DNA of 31,123 bases. Source: a virus (lineage: Duplodnaviria > Heunggongvirae > Uroviricota > Caudoviricetes). Under the pieces are notes generated by a model. The model was not told where the DNA came from. It saw only the letters and a list, made by a program, of their open reading frames with translations, and did not search any database. Positions 7,665-31,123 of the stretch are shown piece after piece; position 1 is the first letter of the stretch; the number at the start of each line of letters is the position of its first letter. The position numbers were made by a program, and so were the translations under genes. The stretch is from the IMG/VR virus record IMGVR_UViG_2671181040_000014; one strand, written 5' to 3'.

Positions 7665-7700
7665 TTTTCTGTAAAACAACATTAAAAACAGGAGAACATT

Positions 7701-7970
7701 ATGAAACTGACCTCTATCCATCTTGAAATACTACGTCGAGTGAATGAATTGCAGCCAAAGGATTCTAGAATTCAGGCTGCATCATTACCTCATCTCTCAG
7801 CAAAAGAGGTTAACTTTGCTATTTCAGATCTTGCTGATATAGGTTTTATCGATGTTATACGAAGCAAATCTGCCGAAGGTGGATTGATTGCTAATGAGAT
7901 AACGTCAAAAGGTTTTGCTTTTTTGAGTGAGATTGGCGCTGAAAAAAATTCATCGATGAGCACTCATTGA
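7701..7970 (+). CDS. small hypothetical protein (89 aa), possible winged-helix DNA-binding fold; first gene of an AT-rich moron
   Basis: Strong RBS (AGGAGAACATTATG). AT-rich codon usage unlike the flanking phage genes. Helix-rich pattern (LEILRRVNEL ... FAISDLADIGFID) only suggests a wHTH fold. Confidence 0.55.
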   Translation: MKLTSIHLEILRRVNELQPKDSRIQAASLPHLSAKEVNFAISDLADIGFIDVIRSKSAEGGLIANEITSKGFAFLSEIGAEKNSSMSTH

Positions 7971-7984
7971 TTTCTGCTTCAATC

Positions 7985-8002
7985 GGCTGCCAATTGGCAG
8001 CC
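7985..8002. promoter_or_regulatory. perfect 18-bp palindrome GGCTGCCAATTGGCAGCC (possible operator or hairpin)
   Basis: Exact dyad symmetry with no T-run after it, lying between the two moron genes. Confidence 0.45.
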
Positions 8003-8167
8003 TAAACTGTAAAGTGAATTTAAAATCGCCTACAATTGATGCTTAAATTTTGTTCTGTATCATCTGCAGGTTTAGGGATATCACAGTAGCTTTCTGACAA
8101 GAAGAGTTCTTTTCTTCTACCAATGAAGTGGTTATGTTAACCTGCGCTAAATCGAGACTGGTGCGGA

Positions 8168-8974
8168 GTGGAATCGAAAGTGTCATATTTTTACAGAAGC
8201 AAGAATATTTCAGGTGTTTCTATAAATGAAGATAGCTTGATTAGCTTAAGCACGGCAATTGTCGAACGCTGCGTTAAAATGAATGAGCAAGCTCAAAAGG
8301 AAAGTAGGGAAGTTTGTGCTCAATGTGTTTTTTTTATTTTGTTCGATGGTAAGGGGTATAAAGTTGATTCTATCGGTGAGCTTGTGAAATACTTTAGACA
8401 GGCCACTAGGATTGATCAAATAATTTTTACTATTGAAACTTATCAAAGTCGACAGTCTAACAGGATGAATGGATCTTGGATGGAGCTACGAATTGATGAG
8501 AGGAATTCAAATAGCAGCACAATGATTGTAGCATCGGAAGATAATGAGTGGGTTGACTCGTTATGGATTACGATTCAGGATTTACTTAACAAGTGCAAAA
8601 ATAAATTTAGATTTTTTAGAACAGCTTGGACTATGTTAAGTATCCAGATTTCAGGTGTGACAGTTGGCTTTTTGCTTAGCTTATGGACAGCCTCAAAACT
8701 GGCGCCAAAACTATCAATCGATGGTGCATTTGCTTTATCATTTATTTGTATCTTTATTTTGTTTTCGAACTTATGGAGCTTTGCTATTCCATTAATAATT
8801 AAGCTTATCGACTTTTTGTTTCCTAGTGTTAAGTTTGTTATTAATGGTAAAAATTACTTTCACTGGAGTGTCCAGGCTATAATTGGAGCGATTGCCAGTG
8901 CGGTTATATTGTATTTTATTAGCTCCATGTTGCTTTTTGCATTAGAAATGTTAAATAGCATCATTAAGAAATAG
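8168..8974 (+). CDS. hypothetical membrane protein: soluble N-terminal domain (~150 aa) plus three C-terminal hydrophobic helices; second gene of the moron
   Basis: 268-aa ORF in AT-rich DNA. Hydrophobic segments around residues 155-175, 187-215 and 235-262. Start codon uncertain (GTG at 8168 has a weak RBS; first in-frame ATG is at 8279). Confidence 0.5.
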   Translation: MESKVSYFYRSKNISGVSINEDSLISLSTAIVERCVKMNEQAQKESREVCAQCVFFILFDGKGYKVDSIGELVKYFRQATRIDQIIFTIETYQSRQSNRMNGSWMELRIDERNSNSSTMIVASEDNEWVDSLWITIQDLLNKCKNKFRFFRTAWTMLSIQISGVTVGFLLSLWTASKLAPKLSIDGAFALSFICIFILFSNLWSFAIPLIIKLIDFLFPSVKFVINGKNYFHWSVQAIIGAIASAVILYFISSMLLFALEMLNSIIKK

Positions 8975-9082
8975 TTAATGAATTAGTTATAATTACATCA
9001 ATTCTATGGCTGCCAAATGGTGGCCTTTTTTATTCCTCTCATTTCTATTTCTGAGAGGACTCACTGCAATAAGAGGTGGCTA

Positions 9083-10809: not shown

Positions 10810-11199
10810 TCAATTATCTCCTTTAAAGGAGTCGTATTCACCCCAATCAGCAAACCCAATCGGTCTTTTAGGGGTCTCTAAGCATAAGCGTTTTTTTCGG
10901 ATTAGCAGGACATTTATTTGAGATACATGCTGAACAAGTTCTACAGGACTGCCATCCTCCAGAGTACCAATGAAAGAAATTAATGATGGATTCCAGTAGC
11001 TTATGTCTGTGAAATGAAATTCAATGTTTTTACCAAAGCTAGCTAGTTGTCCTCCTACCTCATACTCTTCTTCAAGTTCACGGTGAAAATCATTTATCCA
11101 GCATATAAGGCGTCTATGAAATTCATTTGCAAGATTGTAGTCCTTTGGAACATATGGCTGTGAGTATTTGAGGAAATCATTCATGTAGTTATTTGTCAT
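10810..11199 (-). CDS. hypothetical protein encoded antisense to the late operon (moron), function unknown
   Basis: AT-rich minus-strand ORF. Preferred start is the third ATG (11199), which has AAGGA 7 nt upstream; the longest ORF reaches 11226. No signal peptide or recognisable motif. Confidence 0.5.
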   Translation of the reverse strand: MTNNYMNDFLKYSQPYVPKDYNLANEFHRRLICWINDFHRELEEEYEVGGQLASFGKNIEFHFTDISYWNPSLISFIGTLEDGSPVELVQHVSQINVLLIRKKRLCLETPKRPIGFADWGEYDSFKGDN

Positions 11200-20961: not shown

Positions 20962-21317
20962 TGGCCCGTATCGGGGGAACCTGTTATTTCAAAATTGACG
21001 GTCAGCAGCTATCGCTGACCGGCGGCATTGAGGTGCCCATGAACAGGACGGTCAATGATGACATCATCGGCCTGGACGGTTCAGTGGACCGCAAGGAAAC
21101 TCACCGTGCGCCCTATGTCAAAGGGACCTTCAAGGTGCCGAAGAATTTTCCGGTGAGCAAAATCACCTCGTCTGATGAGATGACCATCACTGCCGAGCTG
21201 GCGAACGGTCAGGTCTATGTACTGTCGTCTGCCTGGCTGCACGGCGAAGCGAACCATAATGCCGAAGAAGGCACGGTTGATCTTGAGTTCCACGGTGAAG
21301 AAGGGGATTACCAGTAA
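20961..21317 (+). CDS. tail tube protein (Mu gpM-like)
   Basis: 118-aa ORF between sheath and chaperone; ATGA overlap with the sheath stop. Confidence 0.75.
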   Translation: MARIGGTCYFKIDGQQLSLTGGIEVPMNRTVNDDIIGLDGSVDRKETHRAPYVKGTFKVPKNFPVSKITSSDEMTITAELANGQVYVLSSAWLHGEANHNAEEGTVDLEFHGEEGDYQ

Positions 21318-21586
21318 TGAAAGAGCTTGAGTTAAAGAAACCGATTACTGCTCATGGCGAGACACTCTCCGTACTTGAGTTTGATGAGCCCACCGGGAAA
21401 GATGTCCGCGAGCTGGGGTATCCCTACCAGATGAATCAGGATGAGTCAGTCAGACTTCTGGCGCATGTGGTATCGAAATACATTGTGCGGCTGGCGAAAG
21501 TGCCGCAAAACTCTGTCGACCAGATGTCTCCGGCAGACCTGAATGCAGCGGCGTGGCTTGTGGCCGGTTTTTTCCTCCAGGCCTGA
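21317..21586 (+). CDS. tail assembly chaperone, short form
   Basis: 89-aa ORF between tube and tape measure, ending just after a T_TTT_TTC heptamer. Confidence 0.6.
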   Translation: MKELELKKPITAHGETLSVLEFDEPTGKDVRELGYPYQMNQDESVRLLAHVVSKYIVRLAKVPQNSVDQMSPADLNAAAWLVAGFFLQA

Positions 21587-21735
21587 CGGCTGAATACCTC
21601 ACTGATCGCTTCTTTGACTGCGCCAGTTACTGGCGCATTAATCCTTTCGAATTGCTGAATATGCCGATCAGTGAAATTCCCTTGCTGGTCAGTCAGGCAA
21701 ACAGGATAGAGCAGGAGAAACGCACACATGGCTGA
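21317..21735 (+). CDS. tail assembly chaperone, predicted -1 frameshift extended form
   Basis: A -1 slip at T_TTT_TTC (21568-21574) joins the 21317 frame to the open frame that ends at 21735, overlapping the tape-measure start. Confidence 0.5.
21568..21574 (+). other. slippery heptamer T_TTT_TTC for programmed -1 ribosomal frameshifting
   Basis: Canonical X_XXY_YYZ heptamer, in register with the zero frame, five codons before the chaperone stop. Confidence 0.55.
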
Positions 21736-23560
21736 ATTTGAGCTTAAGGCGTTGATCACCGGTGTCGACAGACTTTCTCCCGCGCTGTCGAAAATGCAAA
21801 AGAAAATCCGGGGATTTAAACGCCAGGCGGAAGAAGCATCACAGGGTGGGCTGGCGCTTGGTGGCGGACTGGCAGCGGGTCTGACGCTTTCCCTGAAATC
21901 TTATGCCGATCAGGAAAACGCCGCCACCGGGCTGAAAGTCGCCATGATGGATGCGAACGGCGAGGTCGGAAAGAGCTTTCAGGACATCAATAAACTGGCT
22001 ATTGGCCTGGGTAACCAGCTACCCGGTACAACGGCTGATTTCCAGAACATGATGCAGATGCTGGTGCGTCAGGGGATCCCGGCAGAAAATATTCTTGGCG
22101 GTGTGGGTAAAGCGACAGCTTATCTTGCGGTACAACTGAAAAAAACACCGGAAGCGGCTGCTGAGTTTGCTGCAAAGATGCAGGATGCTACCGGAACGGC
22201 GTCAGAAGACATGATGGGGCTGTTCGACACTATCCAGAAGGCGTTTTATCTGGGCGTTGACGATACCAACATGTTGTCCTTCTTCACTAAAACCAGTTCT
22301 GTTCTGAAGATGGTGAACAAGGACGGTCTTCAGGCTGCACAGAGCCTTGCCCCCATCAGCGTCATGATGGATCAGATGGGGATGAACGGGGAGTCGGCAG
22401 GTAATGCCCTGCGAAAAGTTATCCAGTCCGGATTAAGCGTTAAGAAAATCAGGGACGTTAATAAAGTTATGGCCCGCCAGAAACTCGGGGTACAGCTCGA
22501 TTTTACTGACGGCAAAGGGAGTTTTGGCGGTCTTGATAACATGTTCAGGCAACTGGCAAAGCTGCGAAAACTGACCGACGTTAAGCGAACCGGTGTACTT
22601 AAGGCAATATTTGGTGATGATGCCGAAACCCTTCAGGTGGTCAATGCTCTGATCGATAAAGGAAAGGATGGTTACGATCAGATCCAGCAGAAGATGAATA
22701 AACAGGCCAGCCTGAATAAACGTGTTCAGGCCCAGCTTGGTACGCTGTCCAACCTGTGGGAGGCAATGACGGGGACCGCAACTAACGGCCTTGCGGCTAT
22801 TGGCGGCGCATTTTCTGGTGACGTCAAAAATATCACGCAATGGCTGGGGGAGTTAGGGGAAAAATTCACGAAGTTTGCGGATGAAAATCCCCGGGTTATT
22901 CGCGGCGTCGTCGGGCTTGCTGCCGGTCTTGCGATTCTGAAACTGGGATTGATGGGCGTGGGCAGTGCCATCAGTATCGTCAGCAGGATCATGTCGATGA
23001 CGCCGATTGGCATGATTGCGACGGCGATAGCCCTGGCTGCGGGATTAATTATCACTAACTGGGATGTTGTCGGACCTTATTTTAAGAAGCTCTGGGAAAC
23101 CATTAGTCCTTATTTTGAGGCTGGCTGGGAACTTCTGAAGAAGGTTTTTGCCTGGTCGCCGCTGGGGATGGTGATCAATAACTGGGGACCGGTTGTTAAG
23201 TGGTTTCAGGATATGTGGGATAAGCTGAAGCCGATTATTGAATGGTTTACCGACAGTTCCGGTGACACGGTCGATGCCATTAACTCGGCGCAGTGGGGCG
23301 CGGGTGCTTATGATGCTTATGGGACGGGAATACCGCCACGGGGATACACTCCTTATCCGGAGGTGGATCCGGCTCAGGCAAACAACGCCTCCGGTGCCAC
23401 AGGTCCGAATCCCTTCATGATTAATAAAGCTACCGCGCCAAAAGTTGATGGTGAGATCAAGGTATCATTTATAAATATGCCACCAGGTATGCGGGTTACG
23501 GAAACACGCTCCAGTGGCATTGATATAAATCACGATGTTGGCTATACCCGATTTTGGTAG
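21728..23560 (+). CDS. tail tape measure protein
   Basis: 610 aa; long Ala/Gly/Leu-rich helical and hydrophobic stretches; follows the frameshifted chaperone. Confidence 0.85.
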   Translation: MAEFELKALITGVDRLSPALSKMQKKIRGFKRQAEEASQGGLALGGGLAAGLTLSLKSYADQENAATGLKVAMMDANGEVGKSFQDINKLAIGLGNQLPGTTADFQNMMQMLVRQGIPAENILGGVGKATAYLAVQLKKTPEAAAEFAAKMQDATGTASEDMMGLFDTIQKAFYLGVDDTNMLSFFTKTSSVLKMVNKDGLQAAQSLAPISVMMDQMGMNGESAGNALRKVIQSGLSVKKIRDVNKVMARQKLGVQLDFTDGKGSFGGLDNMFRQLAKLRKLTDVKRTGVLKAIFGDDAETLQVVNALIDKGKDGYDQIQQKMNKQASLNKRVQAQLGTLSNLWEAMTGTATNGLAAIGGAFSGDVKNITQWLGELGEKFTKFADENPRVIRGVVGLAAGLAILKLGLMGVGSAISIVSRIMSMTPIGMIATAIALAAGLIITNWDVVGPYFKKLWETISPYFEAGWELLKKVFAWSPLGMVINNWGPVVKWFQDMWDKLKPIIEWFTDSSGDTVDAINSAQWGAGAYDAYGTGIPPRGYTPYPEVDPAQANNASGATGPNPFMINKATAPKVDGEIKVSFINMPPGMRVTETRSSGIDINHDVGYTRFW

Positions 23561-23651
23561 CCAGGATTCCCCTCACAGGTATTGCTGGTTGTAAGTCATA
23601 AATAGAGTGATAGAATTAATGCACATTTAGAAAAATGTTAATAGGCGAAAA

Positions 23652-24182
23652 ATGAAAGGCTATATCACAGCAAGTGTAATTCTTGGAGCAGCGGCTATTT
23701 TTTCATCTCTCATAATCTCTGGCAACATCTCCTTTAAAGATGAACATATTATTCAGTTATCTGGAGGAGCCATAAAACTTGGTGATGTTTATAAAGAAAA
23801 TAAATTGATAAGTGCAAAGATTATTTTTCCAGATAATCAGGGTGAACAGATTCTTGTTGTCGACGGCAATCCTGAAAACTTTAAGGAGGATTTTCAGGAG
23901 AAATTAAATAAAGTAATAAAAACTTTAAATGCGTCAAAGAAAAAAGATGAAGAGAAAGTTAGCCTGGATAATTTAAGTGTTATTGAAGAGTCTAAACTAG
24001 AGCTCGTTTCTGCGGTGCGTTACTCTGCTCAGTATGTTCCTATGTTTACTCTGACGCTGGACAAAAAAGAAATTACCATGCCTAAAAATACGGTAATATT
24101 TCCATTTGCCAGCGATGAAACAGCTAAGTATTTAAATGAACAACAGCAAAAGTATAAAGATTCGTTGTTTCTGACTCGCTAA
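23652..24182 (+). CDS. hypothetical membrane-anchored or secreted protein (176 aa); moron inside the tail module
   Basis: AT-rich ORF with hydrophobic N-terminus MKGYITASVILGAAAIFSSLIISG and a Lys/Glu-rich body; followed by its own terminator. Confidence 0.55.
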   Translation: MKGYITASVILGAAAIFSSLIISGNISFKDEHIIQLSGGAIKLGDVYKENKLISAKIIFPDNQGEQILVVDGNPENFKEDFQEKLNKVIKTLNASKKKDEEKVSLDNLSVIEESKLELVSAVRYSAQYVPMFTLTLDKKEITMPKNTVIFPFASDETAKYLNEQQQKYKDSLFLTR

Positions 24183-24202
24183 TTAATAAAATTCATTACA
24201 AG

Positions 24203-24227
24203 GCCACCTTCTAATAGGTGGCTTTTT
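24203..24227 (+). terminator. rho-independent terminator after the tail-module moron
   Basis: Stem GCCACCT / AGGTGGC with loop TCTAAT, followed by TTTTT. Confidence 0.65.
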
Positions 24228-24243
24228 AATTTTCGGAGTATAT

Positions 24244-25572
24244 ATGACGTGGAAAGACAGGCTTCAGGACGCGTCATTTCGCGGCGTGCCGTTTAAGGTT
24301 GAAGAAGAAAGTGCGGGAACCGGTCGCCGTGTGGAAACACATGAATACCCGAACCGCGACAAACCCTATACCGAAGACCTGGGGAAAATCACTTTTCGCC
24401 CGTCCATCACGGCTTATGTGGTGGGAGATGACTGCTTTGACCAGCGCGATCGCCTGATTGAAGCGCTGAATAAACCAGGTCCCGGCACGCTTGTCCACCC
24501 GACATATGGTGAGCTGAAAGTCTGTGTTGACGGGGAAGTTCGGGTCAGCACATCGAAAAGTGAAGGGCGTATTGTCCGCTTTGACCTGAAGTTTGTCGAA
24601 GCAGGAGAACTCTCTTACCCCACATCAGGTGCGGCGACGGCGCAGACGCTGATGTCATCCTGTTCTGCACTGGATGACTGCATCAGTGACAGCTTCAGCG
24701 GTTTCAGTATCGATGGTGTGGCGGATTTCGTGCAGAACGACGTTATCGGTAATGCCAGCATAATGCTGGGGTATGTTTCTGATGCGATGAAAGTGGTGGA
24801 TTCTGCCGTATCGGATGCCGCCAGGCTGTTGCAGGGGGATATCTCGGTACTTCTGCCGCCGCCATCGTCAGGCAAAAATTTCGTTGAACAGGTGCAGAAA
24901 ATGTGGCGTACCGGGAAACGCCTTTATGGTAACGCCAGCGACCTGGTCACCATGATCAAAACGCTTTCTGGTGTCAGCCTCGGCAGCGATTTGCAACCGC
25001 GCGGCGTCTGGAAAACGGACAGTAAAACCACCGCCACAGCGACGCAGCAGCGTAACATGGTTGCCAGCACCCTTCGTACGACTGCAATCAGCGAAGCGGC
25101 GTATGCCGTTACCCGATTGCCTGCGCCAACAACTTCTGCGGTGATGCAGAATGCCGCAGTGGGGCAGTCAACAACACCCGCGCAGAGCTCCGGCTGGCCT
25201 GCCGTCACGCATCCGGTGCTGAACAATGCACCGGCGGTAAAAAACACGGTTGACCTGCCAACGTGGGAAGAACTGACCGACATTCGCGACACACTGAATA
25301 CGGCAACTGATAAGGAGTTGTCCCGTACAACCAGTGATGCGCTGTTTCTGGCGCTGCGCCGGGTGAAAGCAGATCTGAATGCGGATATCAACACGCGCCT
25401 TGAACAGTCTGCACGGATCATTCAGCGCACGCCGGATGAGGTTTTACCCGCGCTGGTGCTGGCGGCGACCTGGTTTGATAACGCGGCGCGTGACGCGGAC
25501 ATTATCCGGCGTAATGCCATTACGCATCCCGGCTTTGTGCCGGTGATCCCTCTGAAGGTGCCAGTGCAATGA
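24244..25572 (+). CDS. DNA circulation protein (Mu gp43/N-like)
   Basis: 442 aa; N-terminus MTWKDRLQDASFRGVPFKVEEES...THEYPNRD typical of Mu N-like proteins; follows the tape measure. Confidence 0.75.
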   Translation: MTWKDRLQDASFRGVPFKVEEESAGTGRRVETHEYPNRDKPYTEDLGKITFRPSITAYVVGDDCFDQRDRLIEALNKPGPGTLVHPTYGELKVCVDGEVRVSTSKSEGRIVRFDLKFVEAGELSYPTSGAATAQTLMSSCSALDDCISDSFSGFSIDGVADFVQNDVIGNASIMLGYVSDAMKVVDSAVSDAARLLQGDISVLLPPPSSGKNFVEQVQKMWRTGKRLYGNASDLVTMIKTLSGVSLGSDLQPRGVWKTDSKTTATATQQRNMVASTLRTTAISEAAYAVTRLPAPTTSAVMQNAAVGQSTTPAQSSGWPAVTHPVLNNAPAVKNTVDLPTWEELTDIRDTLNTATDKELSRTTSDALFLALRRVKADLNADINTRLEQSARIIQRTPDEVLPALVLAATWFDNAARDADIIRRNAITHPGFVPVIPLKVPVQ

Positions 25573-29244: not shown

Positions 29245-29883
29245 ATGCATCGTATAGACACGAAAACCGCGCAGAAGGATAAGTTCGGCGCGGGTAAGAA
29301 CGGTTTTACCCGTGGTAACCCCCAGACCGGCACGCCTGCCACCGATCTGGATGATGACTACTTTGACATGTTGCAGGAAGAGCTCTGCAGCGTGGTGGAG
29401 GCATCCGGTGCCAGCCTGGAGAAGGGGCGGCATGACCAGCTGCTTACCGCGCTTCGTGCGCTGCTGTTAAGTCGCAAAAATCCGTTTGGCGATATCAAAT
29501 CGGACGGCACGGTGAAAACGGCTCTTCAAAACCTTGGTTTGGGAGAATTATCTCTGGCTGGCACTGCATCGGGTGTCATTGGTCTGAATGGGTATGTAAC
29601 GATTCCGTTAATTATTTCAGGTTCCCGGAGAACACTGATTATTCAGTGGGGGCAGGCGAGATTTGGTGGGTCTGGTGGTGAAGATGCCGGATATCTTAAT
29701 GATTTTCCTTTTGCCTTTCCGTCAGCATGTTATGGAATGATAGTTAGTCATGTGGGGCATACACCTTCAGGCGCAGGAATCCTGTCGGCTTCTGCAATTA
29801 CATCAAATCAGTTCCGCGGTTTTTCAAGCATAGCGACTGCTGCAAATGCTGTATTAGGTCGTTATATCGCTATAGGGGGTTAA
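29245..29883 (+). CDS. stf: tail fibre protein: constant N-terminal part fused across pixL to the Sv variable part
   Basis: 212 aa with GGAG RBS. N-terminus MHRIDTKTAQKDKFGAGKNGFTRGNPQTGTPATDLDDDYFDMLQEEL matches e14 StfP-type fibres as recalled. pixL lies inside the ORF at codons ~93-101. Confidence 0.8.
   Translation: MHRIDTKTAQKDKFGAGKNGFTRGNPQTGTPATDLDDDYFDMLQEELCSVVEASGASLEKGRHDQLLTALRALLLSRKNPFGDIKSDGTVKTALQNLGLGELSLAGTASGVIGLNGYVTIPLIISGSRRTLIIQWGQARFGGSGGEDAGYLNDFPFAFPSACYGMIVSHVGHTPSGAGILSASAITSNQFRGFSSIATAANAVLGRYIAIGG
29522..29547. other. pixL-like 26-bp recombination site (CTCTTCAAAACC-TT-GGTTTGGGAGAA) inside the tail-fibre gene
   Basis: 12-2-12 site with half-sites related to the hix/gix family; the 852-bp repeat homology begins at its central TT. 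Confidence 0.7.
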
Positions 29884-30385
29884 TATGTTTTATAGTCCAT
29901 CATTAAACATTTTTGTGAATCCTGCGCTTAAGGATGATTACATTAATGCAAATTCATGGCCAGATGATGCTCTGGCTGTCAGTGATGATGTTTATAATGA
30001 ATTTGCAATCAATACGCCCCCATATGACAAAATTCGTGTTGCAGGAAAAAATGGATTACCCACATGGGCACTAATACCTCCACCATCGCATGAAGAACTT
30101 ATTCAACAGGCAGAATCAGAAAGGCAATTATTGCTTAATCAGGCCAACGAATACATGAACAGTAAACAATGGCCCGGTAAAGCCGCTATTGGTCGTCTGA
30201 AAGACGAGGAACTGGCACTATATAATTTGTGGCTGGATTACCTGGACGCACTGGAACTGGTGGATACCTCCAGTGCTCCAGATATTGAATGGCCTACACC
30301 TCCGGTAACTCAGGCCAGCTAATCTCAGGAGCCGTCGAAGTGTCGACGGCTTTTACTTCTTTTTTGTAGTCCATCCAGGCGGATA
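29534..30385. repeat. 852-bp direct repeat, copy 2, matching 4691-5542
   Basis: See copy 1. Confidence 0.9.
29885..30322 (+). CDS. tfa: tail fibre assembly protein (Tfa family)
   Basis: 145-aa ORF starting 2 nt after the fibre stop; C-terminus converges tail to tail with the inverted tfa'. Confidence 0.8.
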   Translation: MFYSPSLNIFVNPALKDDYINANSWPDDALAVSDDVYNEFAINTPPYDKIRVAGKNGLPTWALIPPPSHEELIQQAESERQLLLNQANEYMNSKQWPGKAAIGRLKDEELALYNLWLDYLDALELVDTSSAPDIEWPTPPVTQAS

Positions 30386-30689
30386 GTTTTTCTTTATCTG
30401 TACTGCTGATATCACCAAGCATTAATTCCACTCGCCAGTCAGCTGTGACATTATCGGCATGAGCAAGTAACTGCATTCGCTGATTTTCAGCACGTGCGAC
30501 ATAATCAATCGCCGGAGATTTCAGTACCGGTAAACCATTTTCATCTGACGTGATTAATTTACCCCCTTCCTGCTGTCCGGCAATTAATTCATTGTATAAG
30601 TCTGTACTTATCTCAACAATGTCAGCAGGCATGTCGCTGTTTATACCATCAAAGAAAAAACCATTAGTCGATTTTGAGAAATAAATCAT
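30294..30689 (-). CDS. alternative tail fibre assembly protein (tfa') in the inverted cassette
   Basis: Minus-strand ORF from the ATG at 30689 (MIYFSKSTNGFFFDG...). Its last 29 codons overlap the plus-strand tfa 3' end and share its C-terminal motif. Confidence 0.75.
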   Translation of the reverse strand: MIYFSKSTNGFFFDGINSDMPADIVEISTDLYNELIAGQQEGGKLITSDENGLPVLKSPAIDYVARAENQRMQLLAHADNVTADWRVELMLGDISSTDKEKLSAWMDYKKEVKAVDTSTAPEISWPELPEV

Positions 30690-30697
30690 AGATATAC

Positions 30698-31105
30698 CTA
30701 TACACCGATTGCTACCCAAAAACAGGACCTTTCATATTTGACAATTTCTCCCTGAGATATACCGCCAACAATTATATAGAACTGTGATTTGGTGATATCA
30801 GAACAGTTCGCAATGCCCATTGCAGATATACCAGCCAACGACGTTGTATGTGGCACAGCCAACAGCGCAAGTGAACGATTTGGGAATGTTACCGGGTAAG
30901 TCACCGTATAGTTTGATGCTCCACTGACAATACCCCACTGAATAATCAGACCTGAAGGGAGTTTTTGAAAACCCGTTGATGAAAGTGAACTGGCAAACGC
31001 CGCCATATCCGGAATTTGGTTTTGCCCGTTACCTACATTCCGTTTTGCCGCTTCTCCCAAACCAACGTTTATGAAAATGCAGAAATAACGAGAAAATGGC
31101 ATCAT
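30698..31105 (-). CDS. alternative tail-fibre C-terminal segment (Sv') in the inverted cassette; the apparent N-terminus crosses pixR
   Basis: Minus-strand ORF whose first 18 codons (MMPFSRYFCIFINVGLGE) lie beyond pixR in the invertase leader, so it is a cassette awaiting inversion rather than an independent gene. C-terminus resembles Sv. Confidence 0.6.
   Translation of the reverse strand: MMPFSRYFCIFINVGLGEAAKRNVGNGQNQIPDMAAFASSLSSTGFQKLPSGLIIQWGIVSGASNYTVTYPVTFPNRSLALLAVPHTTSLAGISAMGIANCSDITKSQFYIIVGGISQGEIVKYERSCFWVAIGV
31052..31077. other. pixR-like 26-bp recombination site (TTCTCCCAAACC-AA-CGTTTATGAAAA), inverted relative to pixL
   Basis: Reverse complement of the 4679-4704 site; shares the GGTTTGGGAGAA half-site with pixL in inverted orientation. 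Confidence 0.7.
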
Positions 31106-31123
31106 TCCTGCTTTTGTCAGAGG
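31052..31123. repeat. inverted repeat arm, reverse complement of 4633-4704; continues beyond the window
   Basis: Exact reverse-complement match to 4633-4704. By symmetry an invertase start codon would lie about 9 bp past the window end. Confidence 0.9.

What the first reader, a model, noticed from the sequence alone, without database searches (positions are those of the whole stretch)
23560..24240. AT-rich moron with its own terminator inserted between tape measure and DNA-circulation genes
A 176-aa protein with a hydrophobic N-terminal anchor or signal and a Lys/Glu-rich body is encoded in low-GC DNA inside an otherwise tightly coupled tail operon. It is followed by a strong intrinsic terminator (24203-24227). 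Tail-module morons in lambdoid phages often encode envelope-located superinfection-exclusion or receptor-blocking proteins. I could not place the protein in a family.
Basis: partly seen in the sequence, partly recalled or inferred. Interest (0 to 1): 0.5.

Follow-up and report, generated by a model that had tools for sequence, protein, structure and literature searches.

The report
Membrane-anchored accessory gene in prophage tail operon
A small, AT-rich, self-contained gene for an inner-membrane-anchored periplasmic protein of unknown family sits in a swappable slot inside the tail operon of an E. coli prophage; it is a textbook "moron", probably an envelope-level phage-exclusion factor, but its function has not been tested.

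Summary
A 176-aa ORF (23652-24182, +) lies between the tape-measure and DNA-circulation genes of an SfV/SfII-like prophage integrated at icd. Its GC is 0.34, against 0.51-0.58 for neighbouring genes. A sigma-70-like promoter precedes it and a strong hairpin terminator follows it.

Phages SfV, SfII and SfI lack it. Of about 1,093 E. coli genomes carrying this tail module, 179 carry this cassette. Others carry one of four unrelated low-GC single-gene cassettes or none. Three of those four alternatives are also envelope proteins.

The gene is under purifying selection. It occupies the same slot in prophages of other genera at 41-59% identity, always AT-rich. In Lelliottia it survives alone after the prophage was lost. 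It is therefore an old, exchangeable accessory gene, not a recent insertion and not a tail part.

A deep alignment gives a confident model (pLDDT 91): an N-terminal transmembrane helix plus an alpha/beta periplasmic domain. No PDB fold, Pfam, NCBIfam or PADLOC match was found. The only structural relative is a lipoprotein of a virulent Pseudomonas phage.

The best reading is a prophage-expressed exclusion protein acting in the periplasm. This is inferred. It is a new member of a known kind, of moderate interest.

The parts
21728..23560 (+). Tail tape measure gene (610 aa); left border of the slot. Homology with cassette-free phages ends in its last few codons.
   Evidence: PF10145 E 9.8e-27; 97.5% identical to the SfII TMP; junction sequences.
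23561..23651 (+). AT-rich upstream spacer of the cassette (GC 0.35). It holds the promoter-like site and a weak Shine-Dalgarno (AGG, 6 nt before the ATG).
23589..23616 (+). Sigma-70-like promoter candidate: TTGTAA, 16-nt spacer, TAGAAT, with a TG extension (9 of 12 matches).
   Evidence: This is a consensus match only; the region as a whole has no more such sites than shuffles do. Relatives carry similarly placed sites: L099 TTGTCA-16-TATAAT, 11 of 12; the L008 orphan copy TTGTCA-17-GAAAAT. None reaches the threshold in L004 or L020.
23652..24182 (+). Cassette gene: 176-aa protein (RefSeq WP_000679479.1, 'hypothetical protein'; PHROG 5485). It has an N-terminal transmembrane anchor and an alpha/beta C-terminal domain predicted to face the periplasm.
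   Evidence: Purifying selection: 14 synonymous against 10 non-synonymous variants and no truncation in 76 loci; dN/dS 0.08 between L004 and L009.
23655..23720 (+). Codons for residues 2-23, the transmembrane signal-anchor helix (N-terminus in the cytoplasm).
   Evidence: Hydropathy 2.08; helix 2-23 in the model. Residue -1 of a would-be signal-peptidase site is D, E or N in homologues. Family members P0096, P0102 and P0090 carry 50-117 hydrophilic residues before this helix, so there it cannot be a cleaved signal peptide.
24200..24233 (+). Intrinsic terminator: 10-bp GC-rich stem, 6-nt loop, then TTTTTAATTTT.
   Evidence: free energy -17.3 kcal/mol, z -4.8. Its stem resembles the one in the Edwardsiella allele (CCACCT...AGGTGG).
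24235..25572 (+). GGAG ribosome-binding site (24235-24238) and DNA-circulation gene (Mu gp43-like, 442 aa); right border of the slot. Homology with cassette-free phages resumes at about the RBS.
   Evidence: PF07157 E 8.4e-34; junction sequences.

Best explanation
The region is a moron cassette made of promoter, one gene and terminator. It sits in a recombination-exchangeable slot between the tape-measure and DNA-circulation genes of an SfV-like prophage (lambdoid regulation, Mu-like contractile tail) integrated at icd.

Its product is a bitopic inner-membrane protein. A short cytoplasmic N-terminus is followed by one transmembrane helix (residues 2-23) and a roughly 150-residue alpha/beta domain in the periplasm. 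It belongs to an uncharacterised family found on mobile elements.

Proposed mechanism (inferred, not shown):
- In the lysogen, the cassette's own promoter transcribes only this gene, and the terminator stops transcription before the baseplate genes.
- During lytic growth, Q-antiterminated late transcription reads through the terminator, so the gene is also made late.
- The membrane-tethered periplasmic domain then interferes with an incoming phage after adsorption, at the periplasm or inner-membrane step of tail-tip or tape-measure insertion and DNA entry. That would be superinfection exclusion, in the manner of HK97 gp15, T4 Sp/Imm or lactococcal Sie2009.

Shown here: the gene is real, accessory, selected, autonomous in structure and envelope-directed. 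Inferred: expression from the prophage and the exclusion function.
For: Accessory and exchangeable:
- The cassette is absent from SfV, SfII and SfI at 96-97% flank identity.
- 179 of 5,426 complete E. coli genomes carry it at 99% identity or more. About 1,093 carry the flanks.
- The same slot holds other cassettes:
  - a 164-aa Sec-signal protein (85 genomes);
  - a transmembrane OB-fold protein on the opposite strand (79 genomes);
  - a 225-aa lipoprotein (55 genomes);
  - a bPH_1 protein (28 genomes);
  - or only a terminator.
- Counting this cassette, four of the five cargo types are envelope proteins.

Real and selected:
- No truncated copy occurs among 76 IMG/VR loci, and variants run 14 synonymous to 10 non-synonymous.
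- dN/dS is 0.08 between L004 and L009.

Not a tail part:
- The gene persists across a tape-measure swap. Between L004 and L009 the TMP is 39% identical while this protein is 85% identical.
- In Lelliottia amnigena only the cassette and 120 nt of the TMP 3' end survive next to icd. The ORF, a promoter-like site and the terminator are intact.
- Distant homologues (23% identity) lie in small integrative islands of Pseudomonas and marine bacteria. One lies two genes from an Mrr-type nuclease.

Topology:
- Hydropathy and the model give a transmembrane helix.
- Some homologues have N-terminal extensions before the helix.

Link to exclusion:
- The only structural relative is a lipoprotein of the virulent Pseudomonas phage ventosus: Foldseek E 1.3e-6, TM-scores 0.56 and 0.66; hhalign E 1.2e-4.
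- A virulent phage gains nothing from lysogenic conversion. From general knowledge, tethered periplasmic proteins of virulent phages act in exclusion (T5 Llp, T4 Sp) or in lysis.
- The precedent for a tail-operon moron next to the TMP gene that encodes an inner-membrane exclusion protein is HK97 gp15 (PMC3594210).
- A Q-type antiterminator gene is present in this prophage.
Against: - The promoter is only a 9-of-12 consensus match, and the region has no excess of such matches. Two relatives (L004, L020) show no site that passes the scan.
- No expression data are available.
- None of the 50,697 deposited phage genomes carries the gene, so no isolated phage is at hand to show that it is dispensable. 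That dispensability is inferred from SfV, SfII and SfI lacking it.
- The hhalign probability for the ventosus lipoprotein is only 56%.
- Envelope location fits several other roles equally well.
Confidence: 0.45

Rival explanations
1. The gene is a lysogenic-conversion or fitness factor unrelated to phage exclusion. The periplasmic domain might protect the host against periplasm-acting toxins, as an orphan immunity protein against colicins, tailocins, or T6SS or CDI effectors. Alternatively it might modify envelope physiology or colonisation.
For: - The protein is envelope-directed.
- The cassette is retained alone in Lelliottia after the prophage was lost.
- Homologues are carried as cargo on non-phage islands.
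- The other cargo genes of the slot are also secreted, lipid-anchored or membrane-anchored proteins.
- Morons such as lom and bor serve the host in ways unrelated to phages (PMC3594210).
Against: - A probable distant relative occurs in a virulent phage, which cannot benefit from long-term host fitness.
- No similarity to any known immunity family was found.
- No cognate toxin gene lies nearby.
Confidence: 0.25
2. The gene is a non-essential helper of the phage's own lytic cycle. It would be made from the late transcript to protect progeny from abortive injection into debris or already-infected cells, to tune lysis, or to assist tail or tape-measure handling at the membrane.
For: - It has the same orientation as the late tail operon and lies inside it.
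- Read-through by Q-modified polymerase is expected, since an antiterminator gene is present.
- It has kept the same position next to the TMP gene across genera.
- Its architecture, an N-terminal transmembrane helix plus a periplasmic domain, formally resembles that of i-spanins.
Against: - It is absent from the viable phages SfV, SfII and SfI.
- It is unaffected by replacement of the TMP with a 39%-identical one.
- It is retained where no phage genes remain.
- It occurs on islands that lack tail genes.
- It is not in the lysis cassette, no partner lipoprotein gene is present, and the domain is alpha/beta rather than a coiled coil.
Confidence: 0.12
3. The cassette is a neutral hitchhiker, or a decaying or silent ORF, with no present function.
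For: - The AT-rich DNA might be silenced by H-NS (general knowledge).
- There is no expression evidence.
- The host prophage shows signs of decay in its tail-fibre region.
Against: - dN/dS is 0.08.
- There are no truncations in 76 loci.
- All 181 matching records in the 179 E. coli genomes are at least 95% identical, and 180 of them at least 99%.
- The family has 77 clusters at 50% identity with conserved motifs.
- The structure prediction from co-variation is confident.
Confidence: 0.03

Closest known systems
HK97 gene 15 moron (gp15, YebO-like inner-membrane superinfection-exclusion protein)
   Same: Both are single-gene morons inside a tail operon, next to the tape-measure gene. Both have deviant GC, their own promoter and terminator, and an inner-membrane product (PMC3594210).
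   Different: There is no sequence relationship; no Pfam hit of any kind was found. gp15 is a small protein lying between the chaperone and TMP genes of a siphovirus. This protein is 176 aa, has a folded periplasmic domain, lies after the TMP gene, and belongs to a contractile-tail module. Exclusion has been shown for gp15 and not for this protein.
Lactococcal Sie2009-type and T4 Sp-type exclusion proteins (N-terminal membrane anchor with an extracytoplasmic domain)
   Same: Overall architecture, inferred topology and size class are similar. All are carried by phages. This comparison rests on general knowledge and was not tested here.
   Different: No detectable homology was found. The genomic positions differ: Sie2009 lies in the lysogeny module and Sp among T4 early genes.
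T5 Llp and phi80/N15 Cor (lipoprotein-type receptor blockers)
   Same: They are phage-encoded, membrane-tethered envelope proteins. The one structural relative of this family is a phage lipoprotein.
   Different: This protein has no cysteine and therefore no lipobox. [quoted passage not shown] No similarity to these proteins was found.
PHROG 5485 (unknown function)
   Same: The protein matches over its full length at E 3.8e-108, and all 61 aligned family members match it.
   Different: The PHROG carries no annotation, so membership gives the family a label but no function.
Prophage and satellite hotspots for accessory or defence genes (for example in P2 and P4)
   Same: A fixed position between conserved genes holds alternative, unrelated, low-GC cargo in otherwise near-identical elements.
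   Different: The cargo here is single small genes, mostly for envelope proteins. None matches a PADLOC defence model. The slot lies inside a late structural operon.

Membership tests
Moron (Juhala/Hendrix definition as summarised in PMC3594210) | Extra DNA at a position where closely related phage genomes have none | tested here: met
   SfV, SfII and SfI align at 96-97% on both sides and lack about 620 nt. Many E. coli prophages with these flanks show the short 681-nt span.
Moron (Juhala/Hendrix definition as summarised in PMC3594210) | Base composition different from the surrounding genes | tested here: met
   GC is 0.343 and GC3 is 0.299, against 0.51-0.58 and 0.56-0.64 in the neighbouring genes.
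Moron (Juhala/Hendrix definition as summarised in PMC3594210) | Own promoter | tested here: inconclusive
   TTGTAA-16-TAGAAT with a TG extension lies at 23589-23616. It is a consensus match only. Similar sites occur in L099 (11 of 12) and L008, but not in L004 or L020.
Moron (Juhala/Hendrix definition as summarised in PMC3594210) | Own terminator | tested here: met
   A hairpin plus U-run at 24200-24233 folds at -17.3 kcal/mol, z -4.8. Caveat: the empty site and all other cassettes also end in a terminator.
Moron (Juhala/Hendrix definition as summarised in PMC3594210) | Expressed from the repressed prophage | not testable with these tools
   This needs transcript or protein data from a lysogen.
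Superinfection-exclusion proteins (functional class) | Blocks infection by a second phage after adsorption or at DNA entry | not testable with these tools
   This needs plating, adsorption and DNA-entry assays.
HK97 gp15 / YebO family | Sequence homology to YebO-like proteins | tested here: not met
   There is no Pfam match at E up to 1 for the protein, and no shared family among 61 relatives.
Llp/Cor-type lipoprotein receptor blockers | Lipobox with an acylated Cys after the signal peptide | tested here: not met
   The protein contains no cysteine.
i-spanin (Rz-like) | Type II inner-membrane protein with a coiled-coil periplasmic domain, encoded in the lysis cassette with a partner o-spanin lipoprotein gene | tested here: not met
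   The topology is similar, but the domain is a six-strand sheet with two helices. The gene lies in the tail operon about 13 kb from the holin and endolysin genes, and no embedded or adjacent lipoprotein ORF is present.
Structural tail gene of Mu-like/SfV-like tails | Conserved in all phages that have this tail module | tested here: not met
   It is absent from SfV, SfII, SfI, SKA5 and most E. coli prophages with this module. It is present where no tail genes exist.
Known anti-phage defence systems (PADLOC-DB v2) | Match to a defence-protein model | tested here: not met
   No family matches at E up to 1. The same holds for the four alternative cargo proteins.

The most novel reading that the evidence does not exclude
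The protein founds a new, widespread family of periplasm-acting phage-exclusion proteins. The family has at least 77 clusters at 50% identity, occurs in prophages, integrative islands and at least one virulent phage, and has a fold with no solved relative. On this reading, the gap between the tape-measure and DNA-circulation genes of SfV-like prophages is a dedicated slot, exchangeable by recombination and closed by a terminator, in which different envelope-level exclusion or immunity cassettes are swapped.
Probability: 0.3. Interest if true: 0.6.

Novelty: new member of a known kind. Interest (0 to 1): 0.4.

Why it matters
Morons are the main way temperate phages change their hosts, yet most moron proteins have no known function. 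This one is common: it is in 3.3% of complete E. coli genomes and is the most frequent cargo of its slot. It is under strong purifying selection, it is kept even after the prophage is lost, and it has a confident predicted structure with no known relative.

That makes it a well-defined, cheap candidate for discovering a new envelope-level exclusion or immunity mechanism against contractile-tailed phages. The slot itself offers four more untested candidates. Such factors also affect phage-therapy host range in clinical and veterinary E. coli.

Tried and rejected
- **Profile against PDB sequences.** Nothing scored below E 0.3.
- **Family libraries.** Pfam on all 61 family members gave only scattered single chance hits. 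NCBIfam and PADLOC gave nothing.
- **Deposited phage genomes.** tblastn with this protein and with the Pseudomonas homologue found no match.
- **The search for related loci.** With A1, the genome collection gave only Edwardsiella anguillarum.
- **Second profile-based protein search.** It recovered few distant members because of the word index.
- **Insertion mechanism.** There are no flanking direct or inverted repeats and no transposase or integrase at the cassette borders. I therefore favour exchange by homologous recombination in the flanking genes over site-specific insertion.
- **RNA families.** Only sub-threshold leader or terminator look-alikes overlap the terminator.
- **Upstream neighbour in the Pseudomonas islands.** The 180-aa protein is not a paralogue (hhalign probability 0.3%).
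- **SNIPE.** This membrane nuclease acts at injection, but it is unrelated: it has DUF4041 and GIY-YIG domains and a cytoplasmic body.
- **Literature.** No paper mentions WP_000679479 or a moron at this site. The SfIV paper describes a different moron, between Q and the lysis genes.
- **Upstream-region alignment across genera.** The regions are too diverged to show a conserved promoter.
Full report
**1. What is there**

The window is 100% identical over the tested stretch to the E. coli AMSHJX01 chromosome. There it is part of a prophage integrated next to icd, with intE and xisE.

The prophage has lambdoid regulation: a repressor region, a Q-type antiterminator, and holins with a GH19 endolysin. 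It has an HK97-type head and a Mu-like contractile tail, and it is closely related to Shigella phages SfV, SfII and SfI.

- Upstream is the tape-measure gene (PF10145). Downstream is the DNA-circulation gene (PF07157), followed by the gp44-like hub.
- Apart from the 141-nt gap before the tape-measure gene, the neighbouring tail genes abut or overlap. This ORF is set off by 91 nt and 61 nt.
- GC falls to 0.32-0.33 across it, from 0.50-0.61 on either side. GC3 is 0.30, against 0.56-0.64 in four tail genes.
- It is the only such dip in the whole structural module.

**2. Signals**

- A sigma-70-like site (TTGTAA, 16 nt, TAGAAT, with a TG extension) lies at 23589-23616. It is only a 9-of-12 consensus match, and the region has no excess of such matches.
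- A 10-bp GC-rich hairpin at 24200-24225, followed by TTTTTAATTTT, folds at -17.3 kcal/mol. No shuffle out of 200 folds as well.
- No Rfam family explains it.
- No repeats flank the cassette.

**3. It is accessory, and the site is a slot**

SfV, SfII and SfI match both flanks at 96-97% and lack the cassette. In SfII the two genes are separated by about 60 nt that contain their own hairpin terminator. Phage SKA5 has an unrelated 170-aa ORF there.

About 1,093 of 5,426 complete E. coli genomes carry the flanks. Occupancy of the slot is as follows.

| Cargo | Genomes | GC |
|---|---|---|
| This cassette (nearly all copies at least 99% identical) | 179 | 0.34 |
| 164-aa protein with a Sec signal peptide | 85 | 0.31 |
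| 148-aa transmembrane-anchored OB-fold protein (PF12869), opposite strand | 79 | 0.37 |
| 225-aa lipoprotein (LLGGC lipobox) | 55 | 0.42 |
| 125-aa bPH_1 protein | 28 | 0.38 |
| None of the five cassettes (a short empty site in many; only one flank matched in others) | remainder | - |

The cassette counts are for each cassette anywhere in the genome; I did not verify the slot position for every hit.

- Each cassette ends in a terminator just before the conserved GGAGT-TATATG start region of the DNA-circulation gene.
- Homology between variants breaks in the last codons of the tape-measure gene and resumes at the RBS.
- With no repeats at the borders, exchange by homologous recombination in the conserved flanks is the simplest mechanism. 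This is an inference.

**4. It is old in this slot, fast-evolving, and selected**

Homologues occupy the same slot in other prophages:

| Source | Locus | Identity to this protein |
|---|---|---|
| Leclercia-type prophages | L004-L007, L009 | 53-55% |
| IMG/VR contig | L099 | 59% |
| Edwardsiella anguillarum | L020 | 41% |

- In these phages the hub, tube, sheath and DNA-circulation proteins are 79-82%, 85-88%, 74-76% and 67-71% identical to those of the window. The cassette gene stays at GC 0.35-0.37 in all of them.
- Between L004 and L009 the tape-measure protein has been replaced (39% identity). The cassette protein is 85% identical and the other tail proteins 93-98%.
- Selection is purifying. 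Among 76 near-identical loci there is no truncation, and distinct variants run 14 synonymous to 10 non-synonymous. dN/dS is 0.08 between L004 and L009.
- In Lelliottia amnigena the cassette stands alone next to icd, the attachment site of this prophage type. It keeps 120 nt of the tape-measure 3' end, a promoter-like site and its terminator. Homology to the phage stops just past the terminator, at the start region of the missing DNA-circulation gene.

Together these results exclude a structural tail role and a dead ORF. The low GC is a maintained property, not a mark of recent arrival. I cannot explain why it is maintained; H-NS-dependent control is one possibility, from general knowledge.

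**5. The protein**

There is no match in Pfam, NCBIfam or PADLOC. It matches PHROG 5485 of unknown function over its full length.

The word-indexed search found only enterobacterial relatives. The exhaustive profile search found 77 cluster representatives at E of 0.001 or better. Nearly all full-length members are 165-205 aa and share the N-terminal hydrophobic helix. They also share two motifs: G-x-V-x-L-G-x-V-Y-x-E and V-x-Y-x-S-E-x-x-P-x-F-x-L-T-L. All 61 aligned members match PHROG 5485, and none has a consistent Pfam family.

Structure prediction depended on alignment depth.
- With 14 sequences the model was poor (pLDDT 63.5).
- With the 61-sequence alignment it is confident (pLDDT 91.1, pTM 0.76).
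- Its elements are: helix 2-23; strands 32-36, 39-44, 46-58 and 68-72; helix 74-93; a Lys/Glu-rich loop; strands 114-126 and 132-143; helix 149-171.

Topology points to a signal anchor with the N-terminus inside the cell and the C-terminal domain in the periplasm.
- The hydrophobic stretch is long (hydropathy 2.08 over 19 residues).
- The residue before the would-be cleavage site is D, E or N in homologues.
- Three family members carry 50-117 hydrophilic residues before the helix.
- SignalP and TMHMM-type predictors were not available.

Fold comparison gave little.
- Foldseek against predicted viral structures gave one significant hit, a 144-aa lipoprotein of the virulent Pseudomonas syringae phage ventosus (E 1.3e-6, TM-scores 0.56 and 0.66).
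- I located that gene at MG018930 51995-52429 on the minus strand. It has an LLTGC lipobox and lies among non-structural genes.
- Profile comparison supports a distant relationship: E 1.2e-4 over 124 columns, though the probability is only 56%.

**6. Other contexts**

Homologues at 23% identity in Pseudomonas and marine assemblies lie in small integrative islands. These carry a serine or tyrosine integrase and, in one case, a DUF5906 protein. The homologue lies close to a resolvase of about 189 aa (adjacent in L019, one gene away in L015-L018); in the L015-L018 island an Mrr-type nuclease lies just beyond the resolvase. The family is therefore general cargo of mobile elements.

**7. Mechanism**

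Shown: an autonomous-looking, selected, exchangeable gene for a membrane-tethered periplasmic protein.

Inferred:
- The gene is transcribed from its own promoter in the lysogen.
- The terminator confines that transcript.
- Q-modified polymerase reads through during lytic growth.

The function I consider most likely is superinfection exclusion at the periplasm or inner-membrane stage of infection, at roughly 0.4-0.45. The reasons are:
- the precedent of the HK97 gene 15 moron next to a tape-measure gene (PMC3594210);
- the predominance of envelope proteins among the alternative cargo of the slot;
- the relative in a virulent phage;
- carriage on islands, one of which carries a restriction-type nuclease.

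Rivals are a host-benefit or orphan-immunity role unrelated to phages (about 0.25), a non-essential role in the phage's own late cycle (about 0.12), and no function (about 0.03). The remainder is left for functions not considered.

**8. Comparison with what is known, and verdict**

It meets the comparative, compositional and terminator criteria of a moron. The promoter criterion is inconclusive, and expression cannot be tested here. It is not a member of the YebO/gp15, Llp/Cor, spanin or any PADLOC family.

It is best filed as a new member of a known kind: a tail-operon moron encoding an uncharacterised envelope protein.

The terminator is a feature of every state of the slot, and the gene is an old exchangeable resident rather than a recent insertion. 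The function remains open.

Interest is moderate. Nothing here would surprise a phage biologist. However, the family is common, strongly selected, structurally unmatched and easy to test, and the slot supplies four further candidates.

Noticed in passing
window 7700-8975: A second low-GC island (GC 0.33-0.37) holds two hypothetical genes between the Q-type antiterminator and the holin genes. This is the classical lambdoid moron site, where Stx phages carry stx.
   Followed up: no
window 10810-11199 (minus strand): A DUF6173 gene lies on the opposite strand, at GC about 0.40, between the lysis cassette and the HNH/terminase genes. It is another likely accessory insertion.
   Followed up: no
window 21317-21735: The tail assembly chaperone ORF (21317-21586) is overlapped by a second + strand ORF (21553-21735) that runs up to the tape-measure start. 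This looks like the usual programmed-frameshift pair.
   Followed up: no
window 29245-31123: The tail-fibre gene is annotated as frameshifted and truncated. It is followed by two opposed tail-fibre-assembly genes, and a truncated recombinase gene lies just beyond the window. This looks like a decayed invertible host-range segment, so the prophage may be defective.
   Followed up: no
window 24200-24233; L002 2385-2410; L004 8543-8570; L020 1630-1657; L099 6537-6570: A GC-rich hairpin with a U-run sits just before the DNA-circulation RBS in every variant of the slot, including the empty one in SfII. It may be a standing feature of this late operon, for example an attenuator or insulator, rather than cargo.
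   Followed up: partly
L008 7810-8581 (Lelliottia amnigena): An orphan copy of the cassette, with 120 nt of the tape-measure 3' end, lies directly downstream of icd. No other phage gene is left. The ORF, a promoter-like site and the terminator are intact.
   Followed up: yes
L010-L014, L001 (same slot in other E. coli prophages and phage SKA5): Four unrelated low-GC single-gene cassettes use the same slot: a Sec-signal protein, a lipoprotein, a transmembrane OB-fold protein on the opposite strand, and a bPH_1 protein. None matches a known defence model.
   Followed up: partly
L103 1995-2429 minus strand (Pseudomonas phage ventosus MG018930 51995-52429): A 144-aa lipoprotein of a virulent phage shares the fold and weak sequence motifs with this family. 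It is tethered by a lipid anchor instead of a transmembrane helix.
   Followed up: partly
L015 6634-8534; L019 6935-8531: In Pseudomonas and marine integrative islands, the distant homologue lies close to a divergently oriented serine resolvase or invertase of about 189 aa. In one island type an Mrr-like nuclease lies just beyond the resolvase. Whether an invertible promoter controls the gene was not examined.
   Followed up: no
L004, L009 10012-11820: The Leclercia-type relatives carry two extra genes (about 505 aa and 94 aa, no Pfam) between the DNA-circulation and hub genes. The E. coli prophage lacks them. This may be another variable point in the tail module.
   Followed up: no
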